64,000 bases of DNA. Source: Amoeboaphelidium protococcarum X5. Taxonomy: Eukaryota > Fungi > Aphelidiomycota. Below are positions 20,066-52,206 of this stretch, piece after piece. Position 1 is the first letter of the stretch, and every line of letters starts with the position of its first letter. The stretch lies in the NCBI GenBank assembly GCA_023515725.1, contig JALDTO010000214.1:165743-229742 (forward strand), given 5' to 3'. The notes beneath the pieces were generated by a model, which was not told where the DNA came from, did not search any database, and saw only the letters and a program-made list of their open reading frames with translations. Made by a program: the position numbers and the translations under genes.

Positions 20066-20911
20066 ATGGTATCCTATGTTGATATCATCTTTCTGGTGTC
20101 ATCTTTCCTTGTCATTCATGTCGCGTCAGCTGTTTCAAGTGAATTTCAAGAAATGCTCAATCTCGTGAATGCTGAACGCGCATCTAAAGGGGCCCCGGCC
20201 GTTTGTTTGAACGCTAAACTGAACCAAGTGGCGTAGCGCTATGCATAGGTACTCGATGCTGCTGGAGCTATGGAGCACGAAGGTGTTGACGGGACCGATT
20301 TACCTACGCGTTTGTAGGCTGCAGGCTTTCCATACTCCTCTGCAGGAGAAGTCTTGGCGAAATGCTCCAAGCCTCAAGATGCTGTACGAGGTTGGATTAA
20401 TTCTCCTTCACATCACAGCGCAATGATCGATCCAAAGTATCAATTAGCTGGTATTGGACAAAGCGGCTTAAAGTGGGTCATGTACTATGCAGCGTCTGGT
20501 GAGGAGAAATGTTCTTCTGAATTGCCTGCAACATCTCCATCCCCAAGCGCAAAAGCTTATCACTCCACTGATTCCCCCGCCTCTGATGTCGATGCCCATA
20601 CATAAACTTAATCGTTGCCATTGTAAAGCATTTTATCTGCGCCGATTGCTGTTGGTTAGCCCTCGTCGTCTAATCCTCCGGCTACACCAACTTCATCGCC
20701 ATCTGGTTCTCCTTCTCCCGCCGATAGTGCCGCTTCGTAAGAAGAAATATTTCTCGATCTCTCTAGCTAAAGCAGTTTGGATACATTGAAATCCATTATC
20801 ATTGGTATATTTCCTGGTCTGGCAGAATCGTCCGAGTAGCTGGATCAGCTAAATCAAGCGTTGGAGCGCCACGGAATTGGCAAAGGCGGTGTCACCTACA
20901 TGGCTGGCTGA
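20066..20911 (+). CDS. Secreted CAP/SCP (PR-1-like) protein with Ser/Pro-rich tail
   Basis: Signal peptide; MLNLVNAERASKG, LNAKLNQVAQ, MEHEG, AVRGWINSPSHHSAM. Confidence 0.88.
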
Positions 20912-21098: not shown

Positions 21099-24000
21099 TC
21101 AAGACTGTGACAGCTTCTAAACTTCACCAGCAATAGCTATAGCAGACGGTCTCATAGAAGAATCTTGAGCCCAAGCAAGTTGAACAACCTGAAATAGCAT
21201 ATGTGCACGGCTTTCCAGAAATTGAGCTTCAGGCCTTGCACCTTGCAGCACCAGCTCAGCAACTTACGCTGCATTGAAGCCTTCCCATGCCTTTGTGCGC
21301 GTCAATATCTCAAACATCACCACAGCACCAGCATAAACATCGCTTGAAGGAAGAAGATGCTCAGGCACTTATAATTATTACAAAACTTCTGGAGCAGCAT
21401 ACTTAATAGAGTGACCTTTCAACAAATTCCATTATAAGCCTTTGACAAAGTTTGCCTGAGACTGGATTGTGCAGATACCAAAGTCTGTCAAAACCGCACG
21501 CAAAACTCTATTACTGCCTTGCTATACCAAATAATTACCGGATTTGATGTCATTGTGGACGACAGAATTGAAATGCAGGATAGAAAGCGAAGTCATTACG
21601 TCCAAACATAAAATCTGCTGTTACTCCATTGAATAGTCGACCTGTTGAAAAGGCAAAGCTTGGCCCAGAATCAGCTGTTCCAAAGACCCCAGTTCATAAT
21701 TGATCATAAGCAATACATTGTGCAGAGTATCGAAACCAACCAGCTTTGCAATCTAGTCATCGTCTTTGAATCTCCACATCAGAGCAATCTCCTGATGAAC
21801 GCTATCCTTCTGCACTTTGCCAATGAAGCATTTAGCTGCAACCAATCTTGTACTACTTGTAGCAAACGGATGCAAAGTCGGAAAAGACAAAATCTCTGCA
21901 ACCTAAATCTCAGCTTATCCGCCCTTGTTGATAAAGAAAATTGGGTACCATTCTAAAATTTATAACACGCTTCAACTCCAAGTATGCTGGCACAGCAACT
22001 TCCATCGAAGAATTCATAAACGTTGTACCACCCATCGCTGTACCTCCTATTTAAATCGCCGAACCAATTGCCGCATTTAATGTTTGATCAGTCATACCTC
22101 CAGTATTCCTTAATAACAGCATCTTGGAAGACCTCATGCGAGCCTTGATGTATCTGCGCCTGATGCAATACATAGACAGCAGAACCAACACTAAAATCAA
22201 AAAGCAGACAATCGCATTAACAATGATGTACACGGTCATCGTAGAGGACTAGGTACCAGGCTACATTTAACCTGCTTAGCCATCACTTATGGTCATACTG
22301 CCTCCAGATCTAGAGCTATGTTCAGCAGACTTCAACGTAAACATCACTTGAGTAGTATAATTTACCAAACTAGCGGTACTTACAAAACCAAATTCTGATG
22401 ACGTTGGCAAAGTATTAACTTTACTCTCATCTTGAGACGAAATAGAGGTTATGTGGCTTATTATACTACTTTCAAATAATCCTGTACTCATGACTGTTGT
22501 AGTACTAGTGGGTGTTGTGGTAGTCGTCGTCGTAGTGGTGGTTGTAGTCGTGGGAGTTGTAGTTGTAGTAGCAGTAGTTGTTGTGGCAGTAGTAACAGGG
22601 TCAAAGTCCAAATAATTTGCAACACGTAACCACTACCAGACGTTGGTAAATTTACAGCGTTAATGTTGGAACTATCAAACAGCTAGGATGCACTACCGAA
22701 AGTACCAGCCAGAATCATACTATTGTCTTTTCCTCTCAGAATATCACGGACAGTGATTCCACTCGTACCACGGAAACTATACAGAAATTTACCAGATGGA
22801 CTGAACTTCAGCACAGTTGATGGAGATGATGAAATGCTTTAACTATTCCCCAATCCATCTACTACAGAAACAGAAGACGATGAAAGCTATGCAGCCACAA
22901 AGACATTTGAGACAGCGTCCACAGCACAATCAACAGCCTAATCATTACTAGCACCATCCATTGTTGCAACATAAAGTAGAGCACTACCAGGGCTGTAAGT
23001 CGCAACAAAGCCACTAAGAAGAACTTGACTGGGATTTACACTGCGACCTGATTATCCATTGACGCCATAGAATCCAAGAGGATATGCTGTTATATAATAC
23101 GAACCAACTAGGACGATATTACCATTCGGTGACACGCTTAGAGCGGAAGGTACTGGTTGAGAATCATCGATACGCACCATCCATTAAAAAACACCACCAC
23201 CACTAAACTTCGCCAAAAATAGAGCCGATTTTAAAATCATATTGTTTTATAGAGTTTTTGGCAGAATCACGAACGCCAAGTTAGCCAATGGGAGTATTAT
23301 AGCCATTTTACATAGTGTCTCCAAAAGTAAATGATCCAGCCACATACACATCACCAGTTGATTACGACACGGCAATAGCAGAGTTACATGTTACCACAGC
23401 AGCATACCCAATATTGACTCTCCACAGCTCAGCACCACTTGGATTTATCTTGCGCACGTTGCAGACGGTAGTTGTTGGACTGAAGCTAAATCCTCCATAT
23501 AAATACGATAGAGCCTGGTTAGCTTGAGACATTTGAAAAATATTGTTATCAGAATCAACTGCAAGTCCGTATACCGCGGGAAATTCATTAGGTAGGAACC
23601 CAGCCCATTAAAACCCGCCTTACGATGACAATTTAGCGTGCCATTATGCTGTAGTGCTTGCATAGAGAATGTAATTCACTGCTGTATTTATATTGATATA
23701 AATATCATCAATGCCCGAGACCAATCCGCCAGAGATAATAAGATCACCTTGATTGTCTGTTGTCTGTAACCAGCGAAAGACCATTAGCTTCGGCTTGGGT
23801 GTATATGGATGAAGTCCACAGAATATTGCCAGTCTAGCCATTTATTTTCACAAAGGAAAGCGCATTCTTATTACAGTAATTATTATACGGCTCTTAGACG
23901 GCTCCACCAAAAGTTGTAGTGAACTAAGATTAGATGTTAAAGTAAATGAACGATACAATAAAGTCGCCATTGGGGTCGGTAACAGTGCCTAAGTATCTTA

Positions 24001-24103
24001 CTAATCTATTCTATAGCGTGCCAACCCAGGAGACATTCGCATAATCGCTGGCCACTGTTGTCCCAAAGCAGTAGATGATCAGATTCAATGGCAGGAGCAT
24101 CAT
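21099..24103 (-). pseudogene. Disrupted copy of the beta-propeller/poly-Thr receptor kinase family
   Basis: Colinear with 45331-48537 and 48883-52206 but has four frameshifts: +7 duplication (TGTCTGT twice, 23754-23767), about -11 near 23240-23260, -1 near 22621 and +1 near 21938. In-frame TGAs follow the first and last. Confidence 0.85.
22493..22596 (-). repeat. Poly-Thr (ACN)n stalk, short
   Basis: GTA/GTT/GTC triplet run on the + strand. Confidence 0.9.
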
Positions 24104-24811: not shown

Positions 24812-25423
24812 TCAAACATTCTCCAGAATCCGCATAAACAATCGTCTCAATTCCGTATCCGGTTTATCCATACCAACTAATAATAAAAATGCCTTCTCAG
24901 CAATTTCAAAAGACGGATACTTTTCATTAACGACAATATCTCTGTCGTGGCAATTATCCACACAAGCATGCAGCATAGCTCTCCACTAAGAGACACTAAA
25001 GCCGATCTTACTTTACAGTTGACCAGGATCCGCAATATCTGTTGCAGTACTCAATGAGAAAATATCAGGAGGAGCAGAGTACGCGTACATCTTTTCCTTA
25101 AAGAATACAGCAATCATAGTCATCAATACCGACTTGTAGGAGAAATTCGCCAGAACACCAAGTCTGCCTTTCAACTCAGACAGCTGTTTGAAATGCTGTT
25201 CATTTATTCGATTCTACTCATCGGTAATACGCTACTGATCCTTTATCGAGTAATTAATATCCTCCAGATCTTTATTAAAACTTTTCAATATCTCATAAAA
25301 GCCAAACTAATTAGTCTTCTTACTAGCATCATCAGTATATGATCGATCAGAGTCAACAGACGATTCGAGCTTACTAATGTCGTTAGCTTGTCATGACGTT
25401 TACACATGTGCCATCTTCTTCAT
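24812..25423 (-). CDS. Hypothetical coiled-coil protein, 5' end uncertain
   Basis: About 190 TGA-free codons (24812-25390) with protein-like composition. An in-frame TGA at 25391-25393 separates them from ATG25423. Confidence 0.5.
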
Positions 25424-36871: not shown

Positions 36872-39334
36872 TCATTGATCAATCTCTTCTACGGAACTCA
36901 GACCGGGCGCGGAAGGTACCTGGATGGTTTTCCTGTGCATGGCCTTCTTCTCTTTTTCAGTCAGCACGTCCACAGTTTTCATGCGAAAGCGTTAATTTCC
37001 TTTGCTTGTGGGCACTGTCGAGGCGGGCCGTTGTTTCTGATCAGCCACTGGAAGATCTCTACTGCTAGTGTTCTTGGTGCTCTGTCGGAGGTGTGCCGAC
37101 AATTTCGTCAATTGAGTCCAGTCATATTGAGGTAGTTCAGAGTATTACGCCTTCAACTTTTACTTGATTTTCTCAAAGGACATTCTTTCCATCGGATTGC
37201 CACTCCAACATATCATCATGATCTCGTTCAAACTCTTCAATAAATCACTTGATCGAATCTAAGCAAGAGTATCCTAATCAAACTCTGGCCGTTGTCCCTC
37301 TCTGACTGCGCATTCAATCTCATCTGAATGCATTCTGTCCCAGCAAGATTTCTTGGCCATCATCTCCCAGATCACAATAGCGAAAGCGTAAACATCGGCC
37401 ATTTTCTCTTCCTCTGGATTGGTCATGGACATTGCTGACTAATCTTTGCTGGCAGAGGTCACGGTATTTCCCTTTAGGTAGAGTCGTTTGAAAACTTCAG
37501 GTGCTGCATATCTAATTGAGATACCTTGAACATCCGCAAATTTGGCTCCTTTGATATCAGACTCACCAATGATCTTTGCAAGTCCAAAATCACAAATCAC
37601 CGCACGCCAGTAGTTAGGATCGCCAATCTCTCGAGGTGCGTCAATTAGAATATTATTTGGCTTTATATCACGATGAACAATTCCGATTGAGTGCATTTCA
37701 CACAACGCGTCAGACACATGGTACGTCATTCGGAACACTACTTCAGGAGTGAGTGCGTAGTGAAGAGTACTAGTCTTTATGACATCGCTTAATGAACGTG
37801 CATAGTACTTCATGACAATAGATAACGGTTCATCGGTGAATCCAATCAACTTGATTATATTCTCATGGAAATTAAGACTCCACATAATGGCCACTTCAGT
37901 TTTAAAATTCAGCACTAATTCTTCTTGTGTCCACGTTCCAGGATTCTTGACCAATTTCACAACTACGTGCTTAGTTCGATACTTGGTACGGAGACGATCA
38001 TCTAGCAGTTCAGCTTCATAGATCACGCCGCCACCACCTTCGGCTATAACTTTATACGGTCTCACGTCAGCATTATAGTCAATTTTCAAGAATCCAGGAA
38101 GAGCAATGGCTGTCTTTGTATTGATCATTGTACAGTCGGCAGGATTCATCATCATTCTCCCAGTGGCACCAAATTGCTATTGTTATTGAAATCTATCAAC
38201 CTCCTCGCCATAAATTTCATCAAAATCTTGAGATGCTTCAACGCTGTGCAGCTAATCAGCAGACTGTTCAATGCTTTCAGCACTTGCTCCAACCGTCTTA
38301 CTACTTGCATGGAGATTCTTCTTATGCAACTTCTTAGTAGAGCCATGTTCAAGATCACCTTGATTATTGGTTAAAAACATTGACAGTCTCTTCTATCTCC
38401 TATAACAGCCAATAATAAGTATGATTGACAACAGGGCAATTACACCAGAGACACAAATTAAAATAATGACAATCATACTATTTAAGCCATTGCTATTACC
38501 GTTAGAATTTAACTGATCAGAAGATCCAGGTTAGGATGAAGTTGGAGGCTGGGTACTAGAAGGGCCGTCCGAATTAACAGTCGACGATGTAGCAGCAGTA
38601 GTTGGCATCATAGTACCAGATGGTATAGTGGCTGAGATGGGGATACATTTTGGTGGATTATTCCAAATGCCTCCGTACACCTTGGCGTAACTAATGCCAT
38701 TTCCACCTAGTTATCCGACTGAATCCGCAGGTAAAGGAGAACAAGCGAACGTATTCTATACTGGCGCCTGCTGCACTTCACTAATATTCAGACCGATGAC
38801 AGTCTGTGAGGAGGCTGCAGTATTACCACCGCCTTGACACCGCATAATAAGGCTGTTAGTTGAAATGAAGGATCCTGCAGCGATCTACTGATAGCCAGTG
38901 GTAGACGGGATATCATTGCATGACTAGAAAGCATAAGCGTTCGCTGCGGCAATTTCAGAATCTAAAAATGGCTTAGCAATACCAATGCCTTGATATTTGC
39001 AGACCACTTAGTTCACAACTCCAGTTTGCGGATGCACAAGATCAAAGGTGAGGTAAGAGAGTGCATCTCCGGAATTTCCAACGGGTAGATTGGTGACATT
39101 AAGGAAGCGAGGAACTTCAATCACAAGCGATTAACTGTCCAATGATACAGTTCCATTCGGAGAACCAGCATAAGATAAAAATGCGTCAACGTATCTCATA
39201 GTACCAAAGTTAGTTACCACATTCGCCGTCGCTTACAGTTGATAGAACCGGCATGGTCTCACCAGCGTGCAATCTTGAGCCCAAGCCCTTAAGATGTAAC
39301 ACACAGCAACAATAATAAAACTGAATCGCAACAT
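36872..39334 (-). CDS. Receptor-like (TKL) protein kinase with unrecognised Cys-containing ectodomain
   Basis: Signal MLRFSFIIVAVCYILRAWA, TM IVIILICVSGVIALLSIILIIGCY, kinase EGGGG, HRDIKPNN, DFG, YAAPE. 820 aa. Confidence 0.88.
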
Positions 39335-45330: not shown

Positions 45331-48300
45331 ATGCTCGTATCTGTCATTTTTGGCATTTGCTGCTTTGTGACAACCGTAGTGTGTGATTATGCGAATGTGT
45401 CATGGGTTGGCACGCTTTCAAACAATTGGCTTTAATACATTGACACTGTGACTGACCCCAATGGTGACTTCATTGTATCATACTGGTACACGGGAGTCCA
45501 GTCTCAGTTTGTCACTTCATTTGGTGGTGCTGTATAAAACACGTAGAATTTCAATTATGGGCTGTATGCCTCTTCTTTCGTAAAAGTTAGTGGCTCGACT
45601 GGCTAGATTTTGTGGACAATATCCATGTCTGGCCCATAAGGCGCTTATAGTTACTAGCTGACTACTGACAGCTAAGGCAATCTATTTGCTTCTGGTTAAC
45701 TTTACGCTGGCGTTGCAACATTGAACTTTTATTTCAACGGGGGTTTAGTCTATACTTTGGCAACAAGTACAACATCATCATGGCACGCTAAGTGGTCGTC
45801 AGCTGGTCAATTGTAGTGGGCCGGTTTTCAATCTAATGAGTTTCCTACAATTACAGGACTTGCATCGGATTCTGGTAACAATATTTTTCAAATCTCATAA
45901 GCTAGCCAGACTCTTTCCTACACTTACGGGGGATTTAGCTTTAGTCCCACAACTTCTGTCTGCAATTTGCGAAAGGTAAATCCCAGTGCTGTGTAGCTTT
46001 GGAAAGTCAACATTGGATATGCTGCCGTAGTATCATGTAGCTCAGCAATTGCCGTGTCCTAAACAACTGGTGATGTGTATGTAGCTGGATCGTTCACTTT
46101 TGGGGACACTGTGTAGAATGGTTATAAGACTCCAATTGGCTTACTCGGCATTCGTGATTCTACCAACCAGCTTTACATCACCTAACAAAGCAATATGACT
46201 CTGAAATCAGCTTTATTTTTGGCCAAGTTTAATAACAATGGCGTCTTCTAGTGGTTGGTACGCATTGACGATTCGCAACCTTCACCATCCGCTCTAAGTG
46301 TGTCGCCCAATGGAAATGTCATCCTAGTTGGTTCGTATCAGAACACAGCATCACCTCTCAATTTCTACGACACTAACGGTTAATTGGTCCGCAGTGTAAA
46401 TCCTGCTCGAGTAATGCTTAGTGGCTTTGTGGCGACCTTCAGCCCATCTGGTGCATTAATCTACGTTGCGACGATGGACGGATCAGGTGATGATTATGCC
46501 TACCACAGTGCAGTGGGAGCTGATTCTAATGCCTTTGTGGGATCATACTCTTCATCAACGTCTATTGCCGTGATTGACGGATTAGGAAATAGCTATAATA
46601 TTGCAGCGTCTGCCTCAAGTATATTAAAGTTTAGTCCATCTGGCAAATTTCTGTATAGCTTTCGCGGAAGTAGTGGTATTTCAGGCAGTAATATACTAAA
46701 AGGTTTTAACAATAGTCTGATTTTAGTTGGAAGTTTTGGCGGTGCATAAAAATTCTTTGACAGTTCCTCCGATAAAGGTGTGGATGTTCCGACAACTGTT
46801 GGAGGTATGGTATTTGCAAAGTACTTGGATTTTGTGTAAACGCCGACTACCACTACTACAACAACAACAACAACAACAACCACAACTACTACCACTACCA
46901 CTACAACCACGACTACTACCACTACTAGCACGACTACTACCACTACAACCACTACAACTACCACTACTACCACACCAACTACTACGACTACAACTACAAC
47001 AACCACCACGACTACCACCACAACAACGACGACTACTACCACACCTACTACTACGAGTACAACGACAACTACTACTACACCGACAACAACTACGACTACC
47101 ACAACGTCGACTACTACAACAACACACTATAGTAGTACGACAGTCATGAGTACTGGGTCATCTGAAAGCAGTATAATAAGCCATATAAGCTCTACTGCGC
47201 CCCAAGGTGAAAGTAAAATCCATGCTTTGCCAACGTCATCGGAAGTTGGTTTTGTAAGTACCGTCAGTTTGGTGAATTATACGAATCATGTGATGTTTAC
47301 GTTGAAGCCTGCTGAACATAGTTCCAGATCTGGAGACAGTATGACACTAAGTGACGGCGAAGCAGGATAAGTGTAGCCTGGTACGTAGTCCTCTATGATG
47401 ACTCTGTACATCATTGTTATTGCGATTGTATGCGTTTTAATTCTAGTATTGTTTTTGCTGTCAATATATTGCATTAGGCGCAGATACATCAAAACACGAA
47501 TGCTTTCCTCTAGAATGAAGAATAAGACATCAAGTAGTGCTGCTGGTACAACCAATCAATCATTTAGTACAGTTATAGGCCCTGCGACCTAAGTAGTAGG
47601 AACTTTGATGAGTGGGACAACGTATATGAACACTTCGATGGAAGTTGCGGTGCCTGCATATTTGGAGTTGAAGCGCGACTTAAATTTTAGAATGCTGCCC
47701 AATTCCTTCATAAATAAAGGTGGTTAAGCTGAGATATAGGTTGCGGAGATTTTGTCGTATCCACCTGGACATCCTTTCGCTTCAGTTGGTACTAGATTCG
47801 TAGCTGCTAAATGCTTTATTGGCGATGTTAAGAGAGATAGCGTTAATCAAGAGATTGCTTTAATGTGGAGATTCAAAGACTATGACCAAATTGCAAAACT
47901 AGTGGGATTTGATGGTTAACATAATGTTTTGCTAATTATAAATTACGAACTTGGTTCGTTGGAGTAGCTTATTCTGAATCAAGCTTAAGCCGTGGATTAC
48001 TCTATTGAATTGCAGACGATGCTATGCTTTGACGTTATTACTGCATTGGTGATCCTTCATCAGAGTGCTGTGGTCCACAATGACATAAAGTCTGGCAACT
48101 ACTTACTGTATCAAGACGCTAACGGCGCCTTGAGAGCTTCTCTGACGGACTTTGGTATCTGTACGCTTCAGTCCCGGGCCAATGTTGTGTAAGGCATAGA
48201 ATGGAATCGATTGCAAGGCCACACTGTCTCTTATGCTGCACCTGAGGTTCTTGCGAGATCATTGGTTCCAGAGTAGCTTCTTCCTGCTAGAGATGTTTAT

Positions 48301-48537
48301 GCTGGCGCTGTGGTGATGTTTGAGATTTTGGCGCGTAGGAAAGCTTGGGGAGGCTATAAAGCAGCTCAAGTCACTGAAATGGTCCTCCAGGGTTTAAGAC
48401 CTGAGGCTTAATTTTTGAATGATCGTGCTCTTATGCTTTTCCAAGTTGTTCAAATTGCATGGGCTCAAGATCCTTTCATGAGGCCTGTTGCTGCAGCTAT
48501 TGCCAACGAGATCCAGAATCTCGCATAAAATTTATGA
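45331..48537 (+). CDS. Receptor kinase: signal peptide, beta-propeller, poly-Thr stalk, TM, non-RD TKL kinase
   Basis: Single intronless frame (1068 aa). Blades such as TDSQGNLFASG, GDVYVAGSF, FLAKFNNNGVFQW, GNVILVGSY; TM plus RRR; VAAK, HNDIKSGN, DFG, YAAPE. Confidence 0.9.
46839..47140 (+). repeat. Poly-Thr (ACN)n stalk
   Basis: ACT/ACA/ACC/ACG run of about 100 codons. Confidence 0.92.
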
Positions 48538-48882
48538 TTTTTATATGATGATTTAATACAATGTTTTTAAGCTTTCATGTGGTTTCAACATTTACTGTTT
48601 GCAAAGTGTACATAGTCCGTGGTCCAGTAAACAAACAATAAGCTCAAATTTCTTGCGAGAAGTGCTGCACTGCTTTAGAGTTCCATTGAATCTATTTTTA
48701 GCCTGATGACGATTTGTACAATGATTTATTAGCCATGGTGCCATCTTTTACAAAGCCCCTGCATTCTTATCAAGTAATCTTGGTTGAATGTATACTAAGC
48801 TGATAATTATCTAAACTCTATTTTCTGGGTATTAATATTATATAAGCTAGATATTAAATCAGTTCAAATTATCAACAATCTA

Positions 48883-50581
48883 ATGCACGCTTTGGTTATT
48901 CTTCTCATCTACTGCTTTGTATCGACTGCCTGGTGTGACTAAGCCAATGGATCCTGGGTTGGCACATTGTATAACAACCTGTTCTAATACAGTGCCACCG
49001 TTACAGATCCTTTTGGAGATTTTATACTACTGCATCGATATGCTGCCGGTCAATCCTAATTTGCCACCACTCTTGGTGGTGCGGTCTAGAATACACAAAA
49101 TTTTTTCTCTGCATCTCTACCGTTTTCATTTTTGAAGATTAATGGGTAAACTGGCTAGATTTAATGGACTGCATCCGTTGACTGCAGTACTGGTGTTTTC
49201 AGCTGGCAATTGACCACAGACAATTAAGGTAATCTCATTGCAACAGGTTTCGTTTTTGGTGTTGCTGCTCTGAGATTTTATTTCAATGGAGTATTGGTCT
49301 AAACATTGGCATAAAGTACAACAACCCCATGGCACGCCAAGTGGTCGCCAGCGGGTCAATTCCTTTGGGCTCAATTTCTACCTGCTGATCTATCTAGGAT
49401 TACCGGACTTGCAGTTGATTCTGCTAACAATATCTTTCAAATGTCGTAGGTTAACCAGGCTCTTTCATACACATATGGGGGATTTAGCTTCAGTCCTTCA
49501 ACTACCGTCTGCAACTTGCGCAAGGTAAATCCTAGTGGTGCTTAGCTGTGGAAAGTCAACATTGGGCATGCTGCAACTACAACCTGTAACTCTGCTATTG
49601 CCGTGTCGTAGTCAACAGGCGATGTGTATGTTGCTGGATCGTTCACTTTTGGGGACACTGTGTAGAATGGCTACAATACTCCAATTGGCTTATTAGGCAT
49701 TCGAGATTCCACTAATTAGCTCTATAATACTCAACAAAGCAACATGATTTTAAAGTCGGCTCTATTCTTGGCTAAATTCAATAGCGCTGGTGTCTTCTAG
49801 TGGCTGGTGCGTATTGACGATTCGTAACCAGTACCATCCGCTCTAAGTGTGTCGCCAGATGGAAATGTTGTCCTTGTTGGCTCGTATCAGAATACAGCTT
49901 ATGCTCTTGGGTTTTACGACATTAATGGTTAACTAGTCCGCAGTGTGAATCCTGCTCGAGTAATGATGAGTGGCTTCGTAGCGACCTACAGTCCAACTGG
50001 TTCTCTAGTATATGTAGCGACAATGGACGGAGCTAGTGATGATTAGGCCGTTGATTGTGTTGTGGACGCTGTCTCCAACGTATTTGTGGCAGCATAGCTT
50101 GCATCGCCTGCTGTCGCTGTAGTTGATGGATTAGGGAATAGCTAAAGTATTCCATCATCTCCGTCAACCGTGCTGAAGTTTAGTCCATCTGGTAAGTTTT
50201 TGTATAGTTTTCGAGGTACTGGCATCACCGTTCGTGATATTCTGAGAGGAATCGACAATAGCTTGATTCTAGCTGGTTAATTTACCAGCGGATCCAAATT
50301 ATATGATAGTTCCAACATTAATGGTTTGGATATGCCGTGGTCTGGTAGTGGTTACGTGTTTGCAAATTATTTGGATTATGACTCTACTCCGACAACCACA
50401 AGTACTACTACTACGACTACTACTACAACAACAACTACGACTACAACAACAACTACGACTACGACAACCACGTCGACAACTACCACTAGTACCACCACAA
50501 CAACAACTACTACTCCGACCACAACTACGTCTACTACAACCACGACGACTACTTCTATTAGTGCTACAACAACATCAACCC

Positions 50582-50624
<43 letters not shown>

Positions 50625-52206
50625 GACGACGACGACTCCTACTACAACGACAACCACGACTACCACTTTGATCTCAACTACGACTACGACGACGATTACC
50701 ACACTTTCTACGACTACACCGACTACTGTGACTGCTCCGACAACAGCTAGTACTACGCCGACAACGACTACTGCCACAATGTCATTTGCTAGTGCAATAT
50801 TATCCGAAGCTGCCTTAATAAGTCTCGTTAACTCCACCACATCCTAAATTGCTGTTGATATTAGCTCAATGACAACTTCTCTGTTGTCTGATCCACAGAC
50901 TACTACTGCAATCTTGATTAGTCACACTACAAAACTAATTTTCGAGTTGCTCTCGAACGAGTAAAGCTCTAGTATTACAAATAGTATGTCACTCAATGAC
51001 GACGTAGCAGGACAAGTATAGCCTGGAACTTAGTCTTAAATGATGACACTGTACATTATTGTCATTGTGATTGTGTGCGTTTTAATCATTGCAGTCGTTC
51101 TACTGTCTATGTACTGCATAAGGCGCAGGTACATCAAGGCTCGCATGAGATCTTCCAAGACACTGTTATCAAGGAATATTGGAGGTATGACTGATCAAAC
51201 ATTAAATGCGGCAATTGGTTCGGCGATTTAAACAGGAGGCACAGCGATGGGTGGTACAACGTTTATGAATTCTTCGATGGAAGTTGCTGTGCCAGCATAC
51301 TTGGAGTTGAAGCGTGATATCAATTTTAGAATGGTACCCAATTCCTTTATCAACAAGGGCGGATAAGCTGAGATTTAGGTTGCAGAGATTTTGTCATATC
51401 CTGCGGGACACCCTTTTGCTACAAGTGGAACTAAATTCGTAGCAGCTAAATGCTTCATTGGCAAAGTGCAGAAGGATAGCGTTCATCAGGAGATTGCTCT
51501 GATGTGGAGATTCAAAGACTATGACTAAATTGCAAAGCTGATTGGTTTCGATACTTTGCTCAATGTATTGCTTATGATCAATTATGAACTGGGCTCTTTG
51601 GAGTAGCTGATTCTGGGCCAAACTCAGTATGCTTAATCGGTCAACTATTCAATGGAGTAACAGCAAATTTTATGCTTAGACGTTTTCGCAGCGTTATGGA
51701 TCTTGCATTAGAATGCTGTGGTCCACAATGACATCAAGTCTGGCAACTATTTGGTGTACCAAGACGCTAGCGGTCTATAACGCGCTGTACTGACAGACTT
51801 TGGTATTTGTACTCTACTTTCGCGGGCGAACGTAGTGTAGGGTATGTAATGGAATTAATTAAAAGGCCACACTGTCACGTATGCTGCACCAGAGGTTTTG
51901 TCTAAACTACAAGTTCCAGAGCAGCTTCTCCCTGCAAGAGATGTTTACGCTGGTGCTGTGGTGATGTATGAGATTTTGACGCGTAGAAAAGCATGGGACG
52001 GCTATAAAGCAGCTTAAATCACTGAAATGGTACTTTAAGGTTTAAGACCCGATGCATCATTTCAGAATTACCGTGTGCAGCTGCTCTTTCAGATTATTTA
52101 ACTTGCTTGGGCTCAAGATCCTCAAATGAGGCCTACTGCGGCAGCTATAGCTGGTGAGCTATAAAACATTCCACCAATTGAATACACGACGACACTAATG
52201 TAATGA
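48883..52206 (+). CDS. Tandem paralog receptor kinase: beta-propeller, poly-Thr stalk, TM, non-RD TKL kinase
   Basis: Single intronless frame (1107 aa) colinear with 45331-48537. HNDIKSGN, DFG, YAAPE. Confidence 0.9.
50383..50778 (+). repeat. Poly-Thr (ACN)n stalk, long
   Basis: About 130 codons, including a pure (ACT)n tract near 50587-50622. Confidence 0.92.

What the first reader, a model, noticed from the sequence alone, without database searches (positions are those of the whole stretch)
21099..24103. Third receptor copy is a mosaic of the two tandem paralogs (segment shuffling or gene conversion)
Its similarity alternates between paralogs. The N-terminus DYANVSWVGTL/TDPNGDFIVS matches the 45331 gene. 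The last blades (DGASNDQAVDCAVDAVSNVFVAAQL) match the 48883 gene (DGASDDQAVDCVVDAVSNVFVAAQL), not 45331 (DGSGDDYAYHSAVGADSNAF). The post-stalk segment VMSTG..ESSIISHI...AEHSSRSG matches 45331. The juxtamembrane region and kinase N-lobe (RRRYIKARMRSSK...GGMTDQTLNAAIGSAI) are near-identical in DNA to 48883. One switch coincides with the poly-Thr repeat. This suggests modular recombination generating receptor variants, with pseudogenes as possible donors.
Basis: seen in the sequence. Interest (0 to 1): 0.78.

Follow-up and report, generated by a model that had tools for sequence, protein, structure and literature searches.

The report
Patchwork receptor-kinase pseudogene in algal parasite
A frameshift-broken copy of a cell-surface receptor kinase gene in an alga-eating relative of fungi shares different stretches with different sister genes, likely through ordinary gene conversion within the family rather than a dedicated system for making receptor variants.

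Summary
The patchwork is real; the interpretation needs trimming. The window is Amoeboaphelidium protococcarum DNA (TAA/TAG read as Gln). Copy C (24103-21099, minus strand) is a propeller/Thr-stalk/TM/non-RD-kinase gene with four frameshifts; A (45331) and B (48883) are open. Two exchanges hold up. The juxtamembrane/N-lobe region is 96% and 93% identical to B, with synonymous differences in 8 of 95 codons versus 188 of 424 elsewhere. The post-stalk/TM segment is 85% identical to A versus 60% to B. Exact short-read contigs bridge both switches, so this is no assembly chimera. With more paralogs, C is not an A x B hybrid: its 'A-like' N-terminal motifs are shared family state, its mid-propeller groups with a fourth paralog (E), and A is the outlier in the last blades and juxtamembrane. 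The youngest tract is intracellular and homogenising, direction is unresolved, and nothing shows C donating sequence. Best reading: episodic non-crossover gene conversion in a birth-and-death receptor family, as in plant RLK clusters and yeast adhesins; undescribed for aphelids in the papers I could search.

The parts
21099..24103 (-). Copy C: receptor-like kinase pseudogene (signal-peptide-like start, beta-propeller, Thr stalk, TM, kinase) in five reading-frame pieces
   Evidence: tblastn of A and B gives five frame segments; alignment with paralogs
23600..24049 (-). N-terminal propeller part: private to C, not A-derived (23800-23598 only 32-44% identical to each of A, B, D, E)
   Evidence: blade limits are my own reading of the model's strands
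23754..23767 (-). Frameshift 1: 7-bp tandem duplication
   Evidence: sequence; spanned without gaps by contigs of runs X2 and X8; an unnamed JGI protein P0028 reads through the same shifted frame, 97% over 65 aa
22980..23599 (-). Mid-propeller, nearest to paralog E (MP228_009472): 87% aa vs 77% A, 81% B, 71% D
   Evidence: tree C+E bootstrap 99 and 89
23258..23259 (-). Frameshift 2: 11-bp deletion relative to A and B
   Evidence: alignment; no listed contig checked it directly
22600..22979 (-). Last propeller blades: closer to B (83% aa) and D (73%) than to A (58%); old similarity (pS C-B 0.43)
22622..22623 (-). Frameshift 3: 1-bp deletion
   Evidence: inside the exact 608-bp contigs of X1 and X2
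22495..22599 (-). Short poly-Thr stalk (about 35 codons; about 100 in A and 140 in B); site of the B-like to A-like switch
   Evidence: bridged by contig 22331-22938 with 0 differences
22165..22494 (-). Post-stalk linker and TM helix shared specifically with A (older exchange; pS 0.32-0.33)
21900..22145 (-). Young tract shared with B: juxtamembrane and start of kinase (95.9%; pS 0.09); holds frameshift 4 (+1 in a T run near 21937)
   Evidence: junction bridged by exact contig 22102-22342; the one listed contig across 21937 lacks the extra base
21855..21899 (-). 45-bp island unlike both A (32/45) and B (35/45), between the two B-like tracts
   Evidence: present in an X1 contig with one difference
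21690..21854 (-). Second young tract shared with B: kinase N-lobe (93.3%; pS 0.17)
21102..21689 (-). Kinase C-lobe with HNDIKSGN (non-RD), DFG and APE motifs; not assignable to A or B
45331..48537 (+). Paralog A, open frame of 1068 aa; about 47144-47472 is the partner of C's post-stalk/TM segment
48883..52206 (+). Paralog B, open frame of 1107 aa; 51137-51591 is the partner of C's young tracts
   Evidence: ectodomain modelled as an all-beta propeller

Best explanation
C is a frameshifted member of a beta-propeller/Thr-stalk/kinase receptor family that shares a young cytoplasmic tract with B and an older linker/TM segment with A, likely from repeated non-crossover gene conversion between paralogs before C lost its frame. 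Mechanism (inferred): DNA breaks in one copy are repaired off a 70-85% identical sister copy, with pairing likely helped by the conserved kinase start and the low-complexity ACN stalk. Each event overwrites a few hundred bases, so every copy becomes a patchwork of several lineages, and surplus copies die by small indels. SHOWN: the patchwork, the relative ages (synonymous divergence), tree conflict, the junctions in contigs, the frameshifts, the kinase domain. INFERRED: conversion rather than crossover, the order of events, and a receptor function. NOT RESOLVED: who gave to whom, and whether the partner was B itself or a near-identical unsampled copy.
For: Only the C-B pair drops in the JM+N-lobe: synonymous codon differences 8/95 inside vs 188/424 outside (p=2e-12, window chosen after seeing the data; scan-corrected shuffles 0 of 300 and 0 of 3000), while C-A (43/95 vs 198/424) and A-B (41/95 vs 185/424) do not move. 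Exact C-B runs of 78, 76, 53, 51 and 33 bp all lie there. In the post-stalk linker C-A is 76% aa while the other five pairs among A, B, C, D are 28-37%; C-A synonymous differences 11/42 vs 230/477, p=0.006. Quartet AU tests flip: last blades and N-lobe reject AC|BD (p=0.021, 0.023); post-stalk rejects AD|BC (p=0.017). Contigs 22331-22938 (X1, X2) and 22102-22342 (X1) match the window with 0 differences across both switches. Anchor genes between C and B keep their order relative to an anchor outside B in three other haplotypes, judged by locus-tag numbers (one tag inferred from its accession offset), so this haplotype shows no inversion, which a single crossover between these inverted copies would leave. 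pN/pS in the young tracts is about 0.3 (12/340 vs 12/98), and C has changed 15 of 161 otherwise invariant kinase columns vs 16 of 162 for intact D: C likely died recently.
Against: DNA is held for only three copies; D-H are proteins from gene models. 6 of 9 segments give no resolved quartet in the AU test, including JM and TM. AU p-values are about 0.02 and uncorrected for 9 segments. Orthologs of A, B and C in the other assembly were not retrieved, so the events cannot be dated against strains. Contigs hint at further near-identical B-type and C-type versions in the same sample, so the named partner may be wrong. Amino-acid changes inside the tracts lean to C (4 C-derived, 2 B-derived, 2 unpolarised), so some decay may overlap the conversion. 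The collinearity test rests on tag order, not DNA.
Confidence: 0.74

Rival explanations
1. One reading: a diversification system in which broken copies such as C donate segments to expressed receptors (or C was assembled from A and B) to generate new binding variants.
For: C is broken yet keeps about 96% identity with open B over 245 bp; one switch is at the stalk, a natural module border; N-terminal blades are the most variable part of the family; related kinases F and G carry a 28-32% identical, tandem-repeat ectodomain on a 56-79% identical cytoplasmic part.
Against: The young tracts are cytoplasmic and homogenising. In the ectodomain C has one exact run of 25 bp or more with B (26 bp) and none with A, and pS is 0.43 or higher. 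C's most variable blade is 32-44% identical to all four others, so none of them has recently received it. Two of the four claimed segments reflect family state once D and E are added.
Confidence: 0.08
2. C was born as a chimera in one or two unequal or homeologous crossovers in a duplicated (hybrid) genome, between copies not all of which were sampled, and has decayed since.
For: The species has genome-wide duplications (PMC10608142 passages); neighbouring genes have four haplotypes at 90-99.6% aa identity; contigs show additional family versions; E may be present in only some haplotypes (tag spacing).
Against: The segments have very different ages (pS 0.09-0.17, 0.32, 0.43 and higher), which needs several events. 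The 45-bp island inside the youngest tract fits patchy conversion better. Flanking gene order is kept.
Confidence: 0.12
3. No recombination: segment-wise selection or rate variation, with A evolving fast in some parts and B in others.
For: A is the long branch in the last blades (26 private changes of about 125 sites) and JM (18 of 64); this explains part of the alternation.
Against: The signal stays on synonymous sites and is specific to one pair; 0 of 2000 simulations in each of 4 rate models reach it. The simulation varied rates along the gene, not between lineages, so it does not cover every form of this rival.
Confidence: 0.04
4. Assembly chimera of paralogs or haplotypes.
For: Duplicated genome, repeat stalk; some contigs differ from the window at about 1% in C's 5' part (11 letters and 4 gaps in 960 bp), and the one listed contig across frameshift 4 lacks it.
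Against: Both switches lie inside contigs identical to the window, and C differs from A at 50/330 and from B at 10/245 positions within the tracts, so it is not a copy of either. These runs may be the sample the window was assembled from, so they test the assembler, not an independent isolate.
Confidence: 0.02

Closest known systems
Arabidopsis OAK/At5g59670 receptor-like kinase cluster (PMC3136440, passages read)
   Same: Variable RLK cluster with duplications, deletions, remnants and gene-conversion tracts between paralogs; trees differ by segment.
   Different: Plant malectin-like/LRR ectodomain; the reported 2.7-kb tract covers the ectodomain, whereas here the young tracts are short, cytoplasmic, and between inverted copies 27 kb apart.
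Yeast adhesin families Hil/Als/Flo/Epa (bioRxiv 10.1101/2022.02.09.479577, passages read)
   Same: N-terminal effector domain on a repeat region; chimeras and gene conversion between family members are described.
   Different: That they are GPI-anchored wall proteins without TM or kinase is recalled; the passages report enrichment at chromosome ends, while this locus sits among housekeeping genes.
Expanded receptor-like kinases of aphelids (genome paper doi 10.1016/j.cub.2022.08.071; not held; recalled, and cited second-hand in PMC10608142)
   Same: Same organism and protein class; C has an NCBI model (MIR68_008796).
   Different: I could not see whether that paper or its supplements describe this subfamily or recombination in it.
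Non-RD receptor kinases of innate immunity (PMC8463890, abstract and significance text seen)
   Same: Catalytic loop lacks Arg (HND) in 9 of 9 kinase-bearing rows of the family alignment.
   Different: Different ectodomain; kinase ancestry not tested; no ligand or function known. The association is a lead only.
Pseudogene-cassette gene conversion (trypanosome VSG, Borrelia vls, chicken Ig; recalled, from no call)
   Same: A broken paralog near open ones, with segmental sequence sharing.
   Different: No donor archive or expression site seen; the young tracts avoid the exposed variable part.

Membership tests
Ectopic (interlocus) gene conversion | A bounded tract with lowered synonymous divergence in one paralog pair only | tested here: met
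   C-B 8/95 vs 188/424; C-A and A-B unchanged; pS 0.09-0.17 vs 0.43-0.73
Ectopic (interlocus) gene conversion | Conflicting trees for adjacent segments when further paralogs are included | tested here: met
   AU tests flip between last blades, post-stalk and N-lobe (p about 0.02 each; 6 of 9 segments unresolved); trees
Ectopic (interlocus) gene conversion | Junctions exist in the DNA, not only in the assembly | tested here: met
   Exact contigs 22331-22938 and 22102-22342; short-read contigs, possibly of the source sample
Ectopic (interlocus) gene conversion | Non-reciprocal, flanks not exchanged | tested here: inconclusive
   Anchor order is the same in three other haplotypes by locus tags; donor and recipient not resolved
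Receptor-like kinase | Cytoplasmic protein kinase domain | tested here: met
   Pfam Pkinase and PK_Tyr_Ser-Thr above cut-off in A and B; VAAK, HNDIKSGN, DFG, APE in C
Receptor-like kinase | Signal peptide, ectodomain and single TM helix | tested here: inconclusive
   Hydrophobic N-terminus and one hydrophobic stretch before RRR seen by eye; no topology predictor run; ectodomain modelled at pLDDT 87.6
Receptor-like kinase | Intact reading frame (functional gene) | tested here: not met
   C has four frameshifts in the window, two backed by contigs; A and B are open
Non-RD kinases | No Arg before the catalytic Asp | tested here: met
   HND in 9 of 9 kinase-bearing rows
Non-RD kinases | Role in pattern recognition | not testable with these tools
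   No functional data
SBBP-type beta-propeller ectodomain | Propeller fold | tested here: met
   All-beta AlphaFold model, pTM 0.90; best Foldseek hits are propellers (CylK E 3e-11, TM 0.56-0.60; designed propellers)
SBBP-type beta-propeller ectodomain | Pfam PF06739 match | tested here: inconclusive
   Not in A, B or D; above cut-off in F and G and in 5 of 5 scanned distant hits of B's ectodomain
Pseudogene-cassette antigenic variation (recalled definition) | Young tracts aimed at the exposed variable region | tested here: not met
   Young tracts are cytoplasmic; ectodomain pS 0.43 or higher
Pseudogene-cassette antigenic variation (recalled definition) | One-way flow from silent donors to an expression site | not testable with these tools
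   No raw reads, RNA on record or population data

The most novel reading that the evidence does not exclude
Aphelids, the sister group of fungi, run a plant-like repertoire of non-RD propeller receptor kinases whose modules (front blades, rear blades, linker/TM, kinase) are recombined at the Thr stalk and blade borders under selection for recognising algal hosts or rivals, with dead copies such as C serving as sequence reservoirs.
Probability: 0.1. Interest if true: 0.72.

Novelty: new member of a known kind. Interest (0 to 1): 0.32.

Why it matters
It is a clean, quantified case of paralog conversion in the receptor-like kinases of aphelids, a protein class that true fungi largely lack (recalled). 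It warns that trees and gene models for this family mislead: the NCBI model of C hides the frameshifts as introns. If the variable front blades prove to bind host surfaces and to be shuffled under selection, the family would be a candidate for host range in a pest of algal cultures. As shown here, it is ordinary multigene-family behaviour in a dead copy.

Tried and rejected
Standard code: 1 long frame versus 30 under table 6; rejected. No whole genome was held for this window, so no genome-wide DNA census of copies. Three homolog searches returned 3, 6 and 1 proteins, and neither A, B nor orthologs of C from the other assembly; lengths above 1938 aa (possible fused A+B models) were not searched, so absence is not shown. 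Exact look-ups of A and B found nothing. No RNA holder was listed: no evidence on expression either way. In runs X5 and X8 no contig at 93% or more covered 22010-22290; a hole proves nothing and I did not use it. Contig depths (148-173 versus 78-111) were taken only as a hint of extra versions, not as copy number. 'N-terminus from A' rejected. Polarising the B-C tract with A, D, F, G did not give a direction. No language-model look-alike result was obtained for the ectodomain. Earlier-findings look-ups were empty. Literature: searches listed no paper on recombination in aphelid receptor kinases; one search returned 0 papers; PMC8657485 (passages) had nothing on the parasite's receptor kinases; the genome paper is not held, and it and its supplements may bear on novelty.

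Full report
Setting. The window has almost no long frames under the standard code but 30 frames of 300 aa or more under table 6, with dense recognisable genes. Database proteins identical to window pieces are named Amoeboaphelidium protococcarum. Self-BLAST finds three long paralogs: C (minus strand, 21099-24103), A (45331-48537) and B (48883-52206). A and B are open frames with a Pfam kinase domain. B's ectodomain folds as an all-beta model (pLDDT 87.6, pTM 0.90) whose best solved matches are beta-propellers. Its distant sequence relatives are SBBP-repeat proteins at 25-36% identity. The catalytic loop reads HND (non-RD) in 9 of 9 kinase-bearing rows. Signal peptide and TM helix are read by eye.

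C is broken. tblastn splits it into five frame segments: a 7-bp tandem duplication at 23754-23767, an 11-bp deletion near 23258, a 1-bp deletion near 22622 and a 1-bp insertion near 21937. The first is spanned without gaps by contigs of X2 and X8, and is read through in the same shifted frame by an unnamed JGI protein. The third lies in an exact contig. The second was not checked directly, and the one listed contig across the fourth lacks the extra base. The NCBI model MIR68_008796 (P0002) maps to C in pieces that skip these breaks and lacks the start and the stalk.

The alternation is real. Identity of C to A / to B: 24086-23800, 66/61%; 23799-23600, 55/55%; 23599-22980, 77/79%; 22979-22600, 68/83%; 22494-22165, 85/60%; 22145-21900, 73/96%; 21899-21855, 71/78%; 21854-21690, 78/93%; 21689-21105, 70/75%. 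Clustering of informative sites exceeds 20000 of 20000 shuffles, on all sites and on synonymous sites. A single-tree simulation with blockwise rate variation never reached the observed peaks (z +6.3 and -5.9; 0 of 2000 in each of four settings). That simulation does not model lineage-specific rate shifts.

Not an assembly chimera. Contig 22331-22938 (608 bp, 0 differences, X1 and X2) crosses the stalk from the B-like blades into the A-like linker. Contig 22102-22342 (241 bp, 0 differences, X1) crosses from the A-like TM region into the B-like juxtamembrane, with 44 letters on the short side. These runs may be the source sample. A run of another sample (X5) has a linker contig 94% like C (11 differences in 180, versus 28 between C and A; 4 of the 7 listed differences match A), so the A/C-type linker is not private to this sample.

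Two exchanges of different age. In the JM plus N-lobe, synonymous codon differences are 8/95 for C-B against 188/424 elsewhere, while C-A and A-B are unchanged; pS is 0.09 and 0.17. A pair-specific fall at synonymous sites cannot come from protein constraint. In the post-stalk linker and TM, C-A pS is 0.32-0.33 against 0.50-0.77 in the other segments. Linker identity is 76% for A-C and 28-37% for the other pairs among A, B, C, D. This event is older, and its statistics are weaker (p=0.006 post hoc; AU p=0.017).

What more paralogs change. Searches gave D (P0004/P0001), E (P0017, ectodomain only), F (P0015), G (P0019/P0016) and H (P0018). (i) The N-terminal motifs quoted as A-like are also in D and E (A-D 72%, A-E 71%, C-A 58%, C-B 52%), so they are family state. 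(ii) The mid-propeller groups C with E (87%; bootstrap 99 and 89). (iii) In the last blades C is nearest B (83%; AU rejects the alternatives at p=0.007 and 0.021), but D shares much of it (73%), A has 26 private changes, and pS is 0.43. (iv) In the JM, B, C and D form a clade (bootstrap 96) and A lies outside. Six of nine quartet segments are unresolved.

Mechanism. C and B are inverted and 27 kb apart; one crossover between them would invert the genes in between. Locus tags of the EF-hand gene (26657), the second kinase (36872), the 42423 gene and the mannosidase outside B (56745) keep the window's order in three other haplotypes (three anchors in one of them, one tag inferred). Non-crossover conversion is thus the likely route for the young tracts, and the 45-bp island fits patchy or two-step conversion. 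Direction is open. Within the tracts pN/pS is about 0.3, and C shows no more change at invariant kinase positions than intact D, so C was likely coding for much of the time since the exchange. Open B lacks frameshift 4, which lies inside the tract. Contigs differing slightly from every window copy suggest further versions in the same sample, so 'B' may stand for a B-like copy.

Against a variant-generating system. The youngest exchange is intracellular and erases differences; ectodomain similarities are old; C's most variable blade is 32-44% identical to all four others. In its favour, the front blades are the most variable part, one switch sits in the stalk, and F and G pair a very different repeat ectodomain with a similar kinase. 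I give the strong reading about 0.1.

Known context. Conversion, duplication and loss in an RLK cluster are described for Arabidopsis OAK (PMC3136440, passages); chimeras and conversion for yeast adhesins (10.1101/2022.02.09.479577, passages). [quoted passage not shown] Genome-wide duplication and distinctive receptor-like kinase sets in this species are cited in PMC10608142 (passages). The primary genome paper is not held; its content is recalled only. Searches listed no paper on recombination in these genes.

Verdict. Observation largely right, interpretation partly right: a real but ordinary case of interlocus conversion in a dead member of an understudied receptor family. Interest 0.32.

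Noticed in passing
whole window: TAA/TAG read as Gln (table 6): 30 frames of 300 aa or more versus 1 under the standard code. A reassigned code in this species is known (recalled).
   Followed up: yes
window 21102-23784 (P0002, MIR68_008796): The public gene model of C bridges its frameshifts with predicted introns and omits the start and the Thr stalk; likely a mis-annotated pseudogene.
   Followed up: partly
window 45331-52206: Open genes A and B were not retrieved from the protein collection by any of three searches or by exact look-up, although several neighbours were; possibly fused or split in the annotation. Unexplained.
   Followed up: partly
P0015, P0019 (paralogs F, G; outside the window): Same stalk/TM/kinase (56-79% to A-D) but an ectodomain of three to four near-identical repeats of about 65 aa, only about 30% identical to the A-E propellers: possible ectodomain swap or internal repeat homogenisation.
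   Followed up: partly
P0017 (MP228_009472): Paralog E lies 3 tags beyond the mannosidase, and D lies 11 tags beyond it in one assembly but 8 in the other: a hint that E is present in only some haplotypes. Tag arithmetic only.
   Followed up: no
window 36872-39334 (-): A second receptor-like kinase with an unrelated Cys-containing ectodomain and an RD catalytic loop, conserved at 96-99.6% across four haplotypes, in contrast to the shuffled non-RD family.
   Followed up: partly
window 26657-58451 (anchor genes): The window's haplotype is the most divergent of four for three of four anchor genes (kinase 96% vs 98.5-99.6% among the others; mannosidase 92-93% vs 96%).
   Followed up: no
window 24816-25390 (-): A 191-codon open stretch upstream of C with no Pfam match, covered by contigs of two other samples; gene fragment of unknown kind.
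   Followed up: partly
window 20066-20911 (+): CAP-domain (cysteine-rich secretory family) gene with a Ser/Pro-rich tail, tail-to-tail with C.
   Followed up: no
window 48937-50367 (B ectodomain): Outside the two aphelid hits, the listed relatives are large unnamed repeat proteins at 25-36% identity; the ten looked up come from JGI, ENA or NCBI records with no informative name. A horizontal origin of the propeller was not tested.
   Followed up: no
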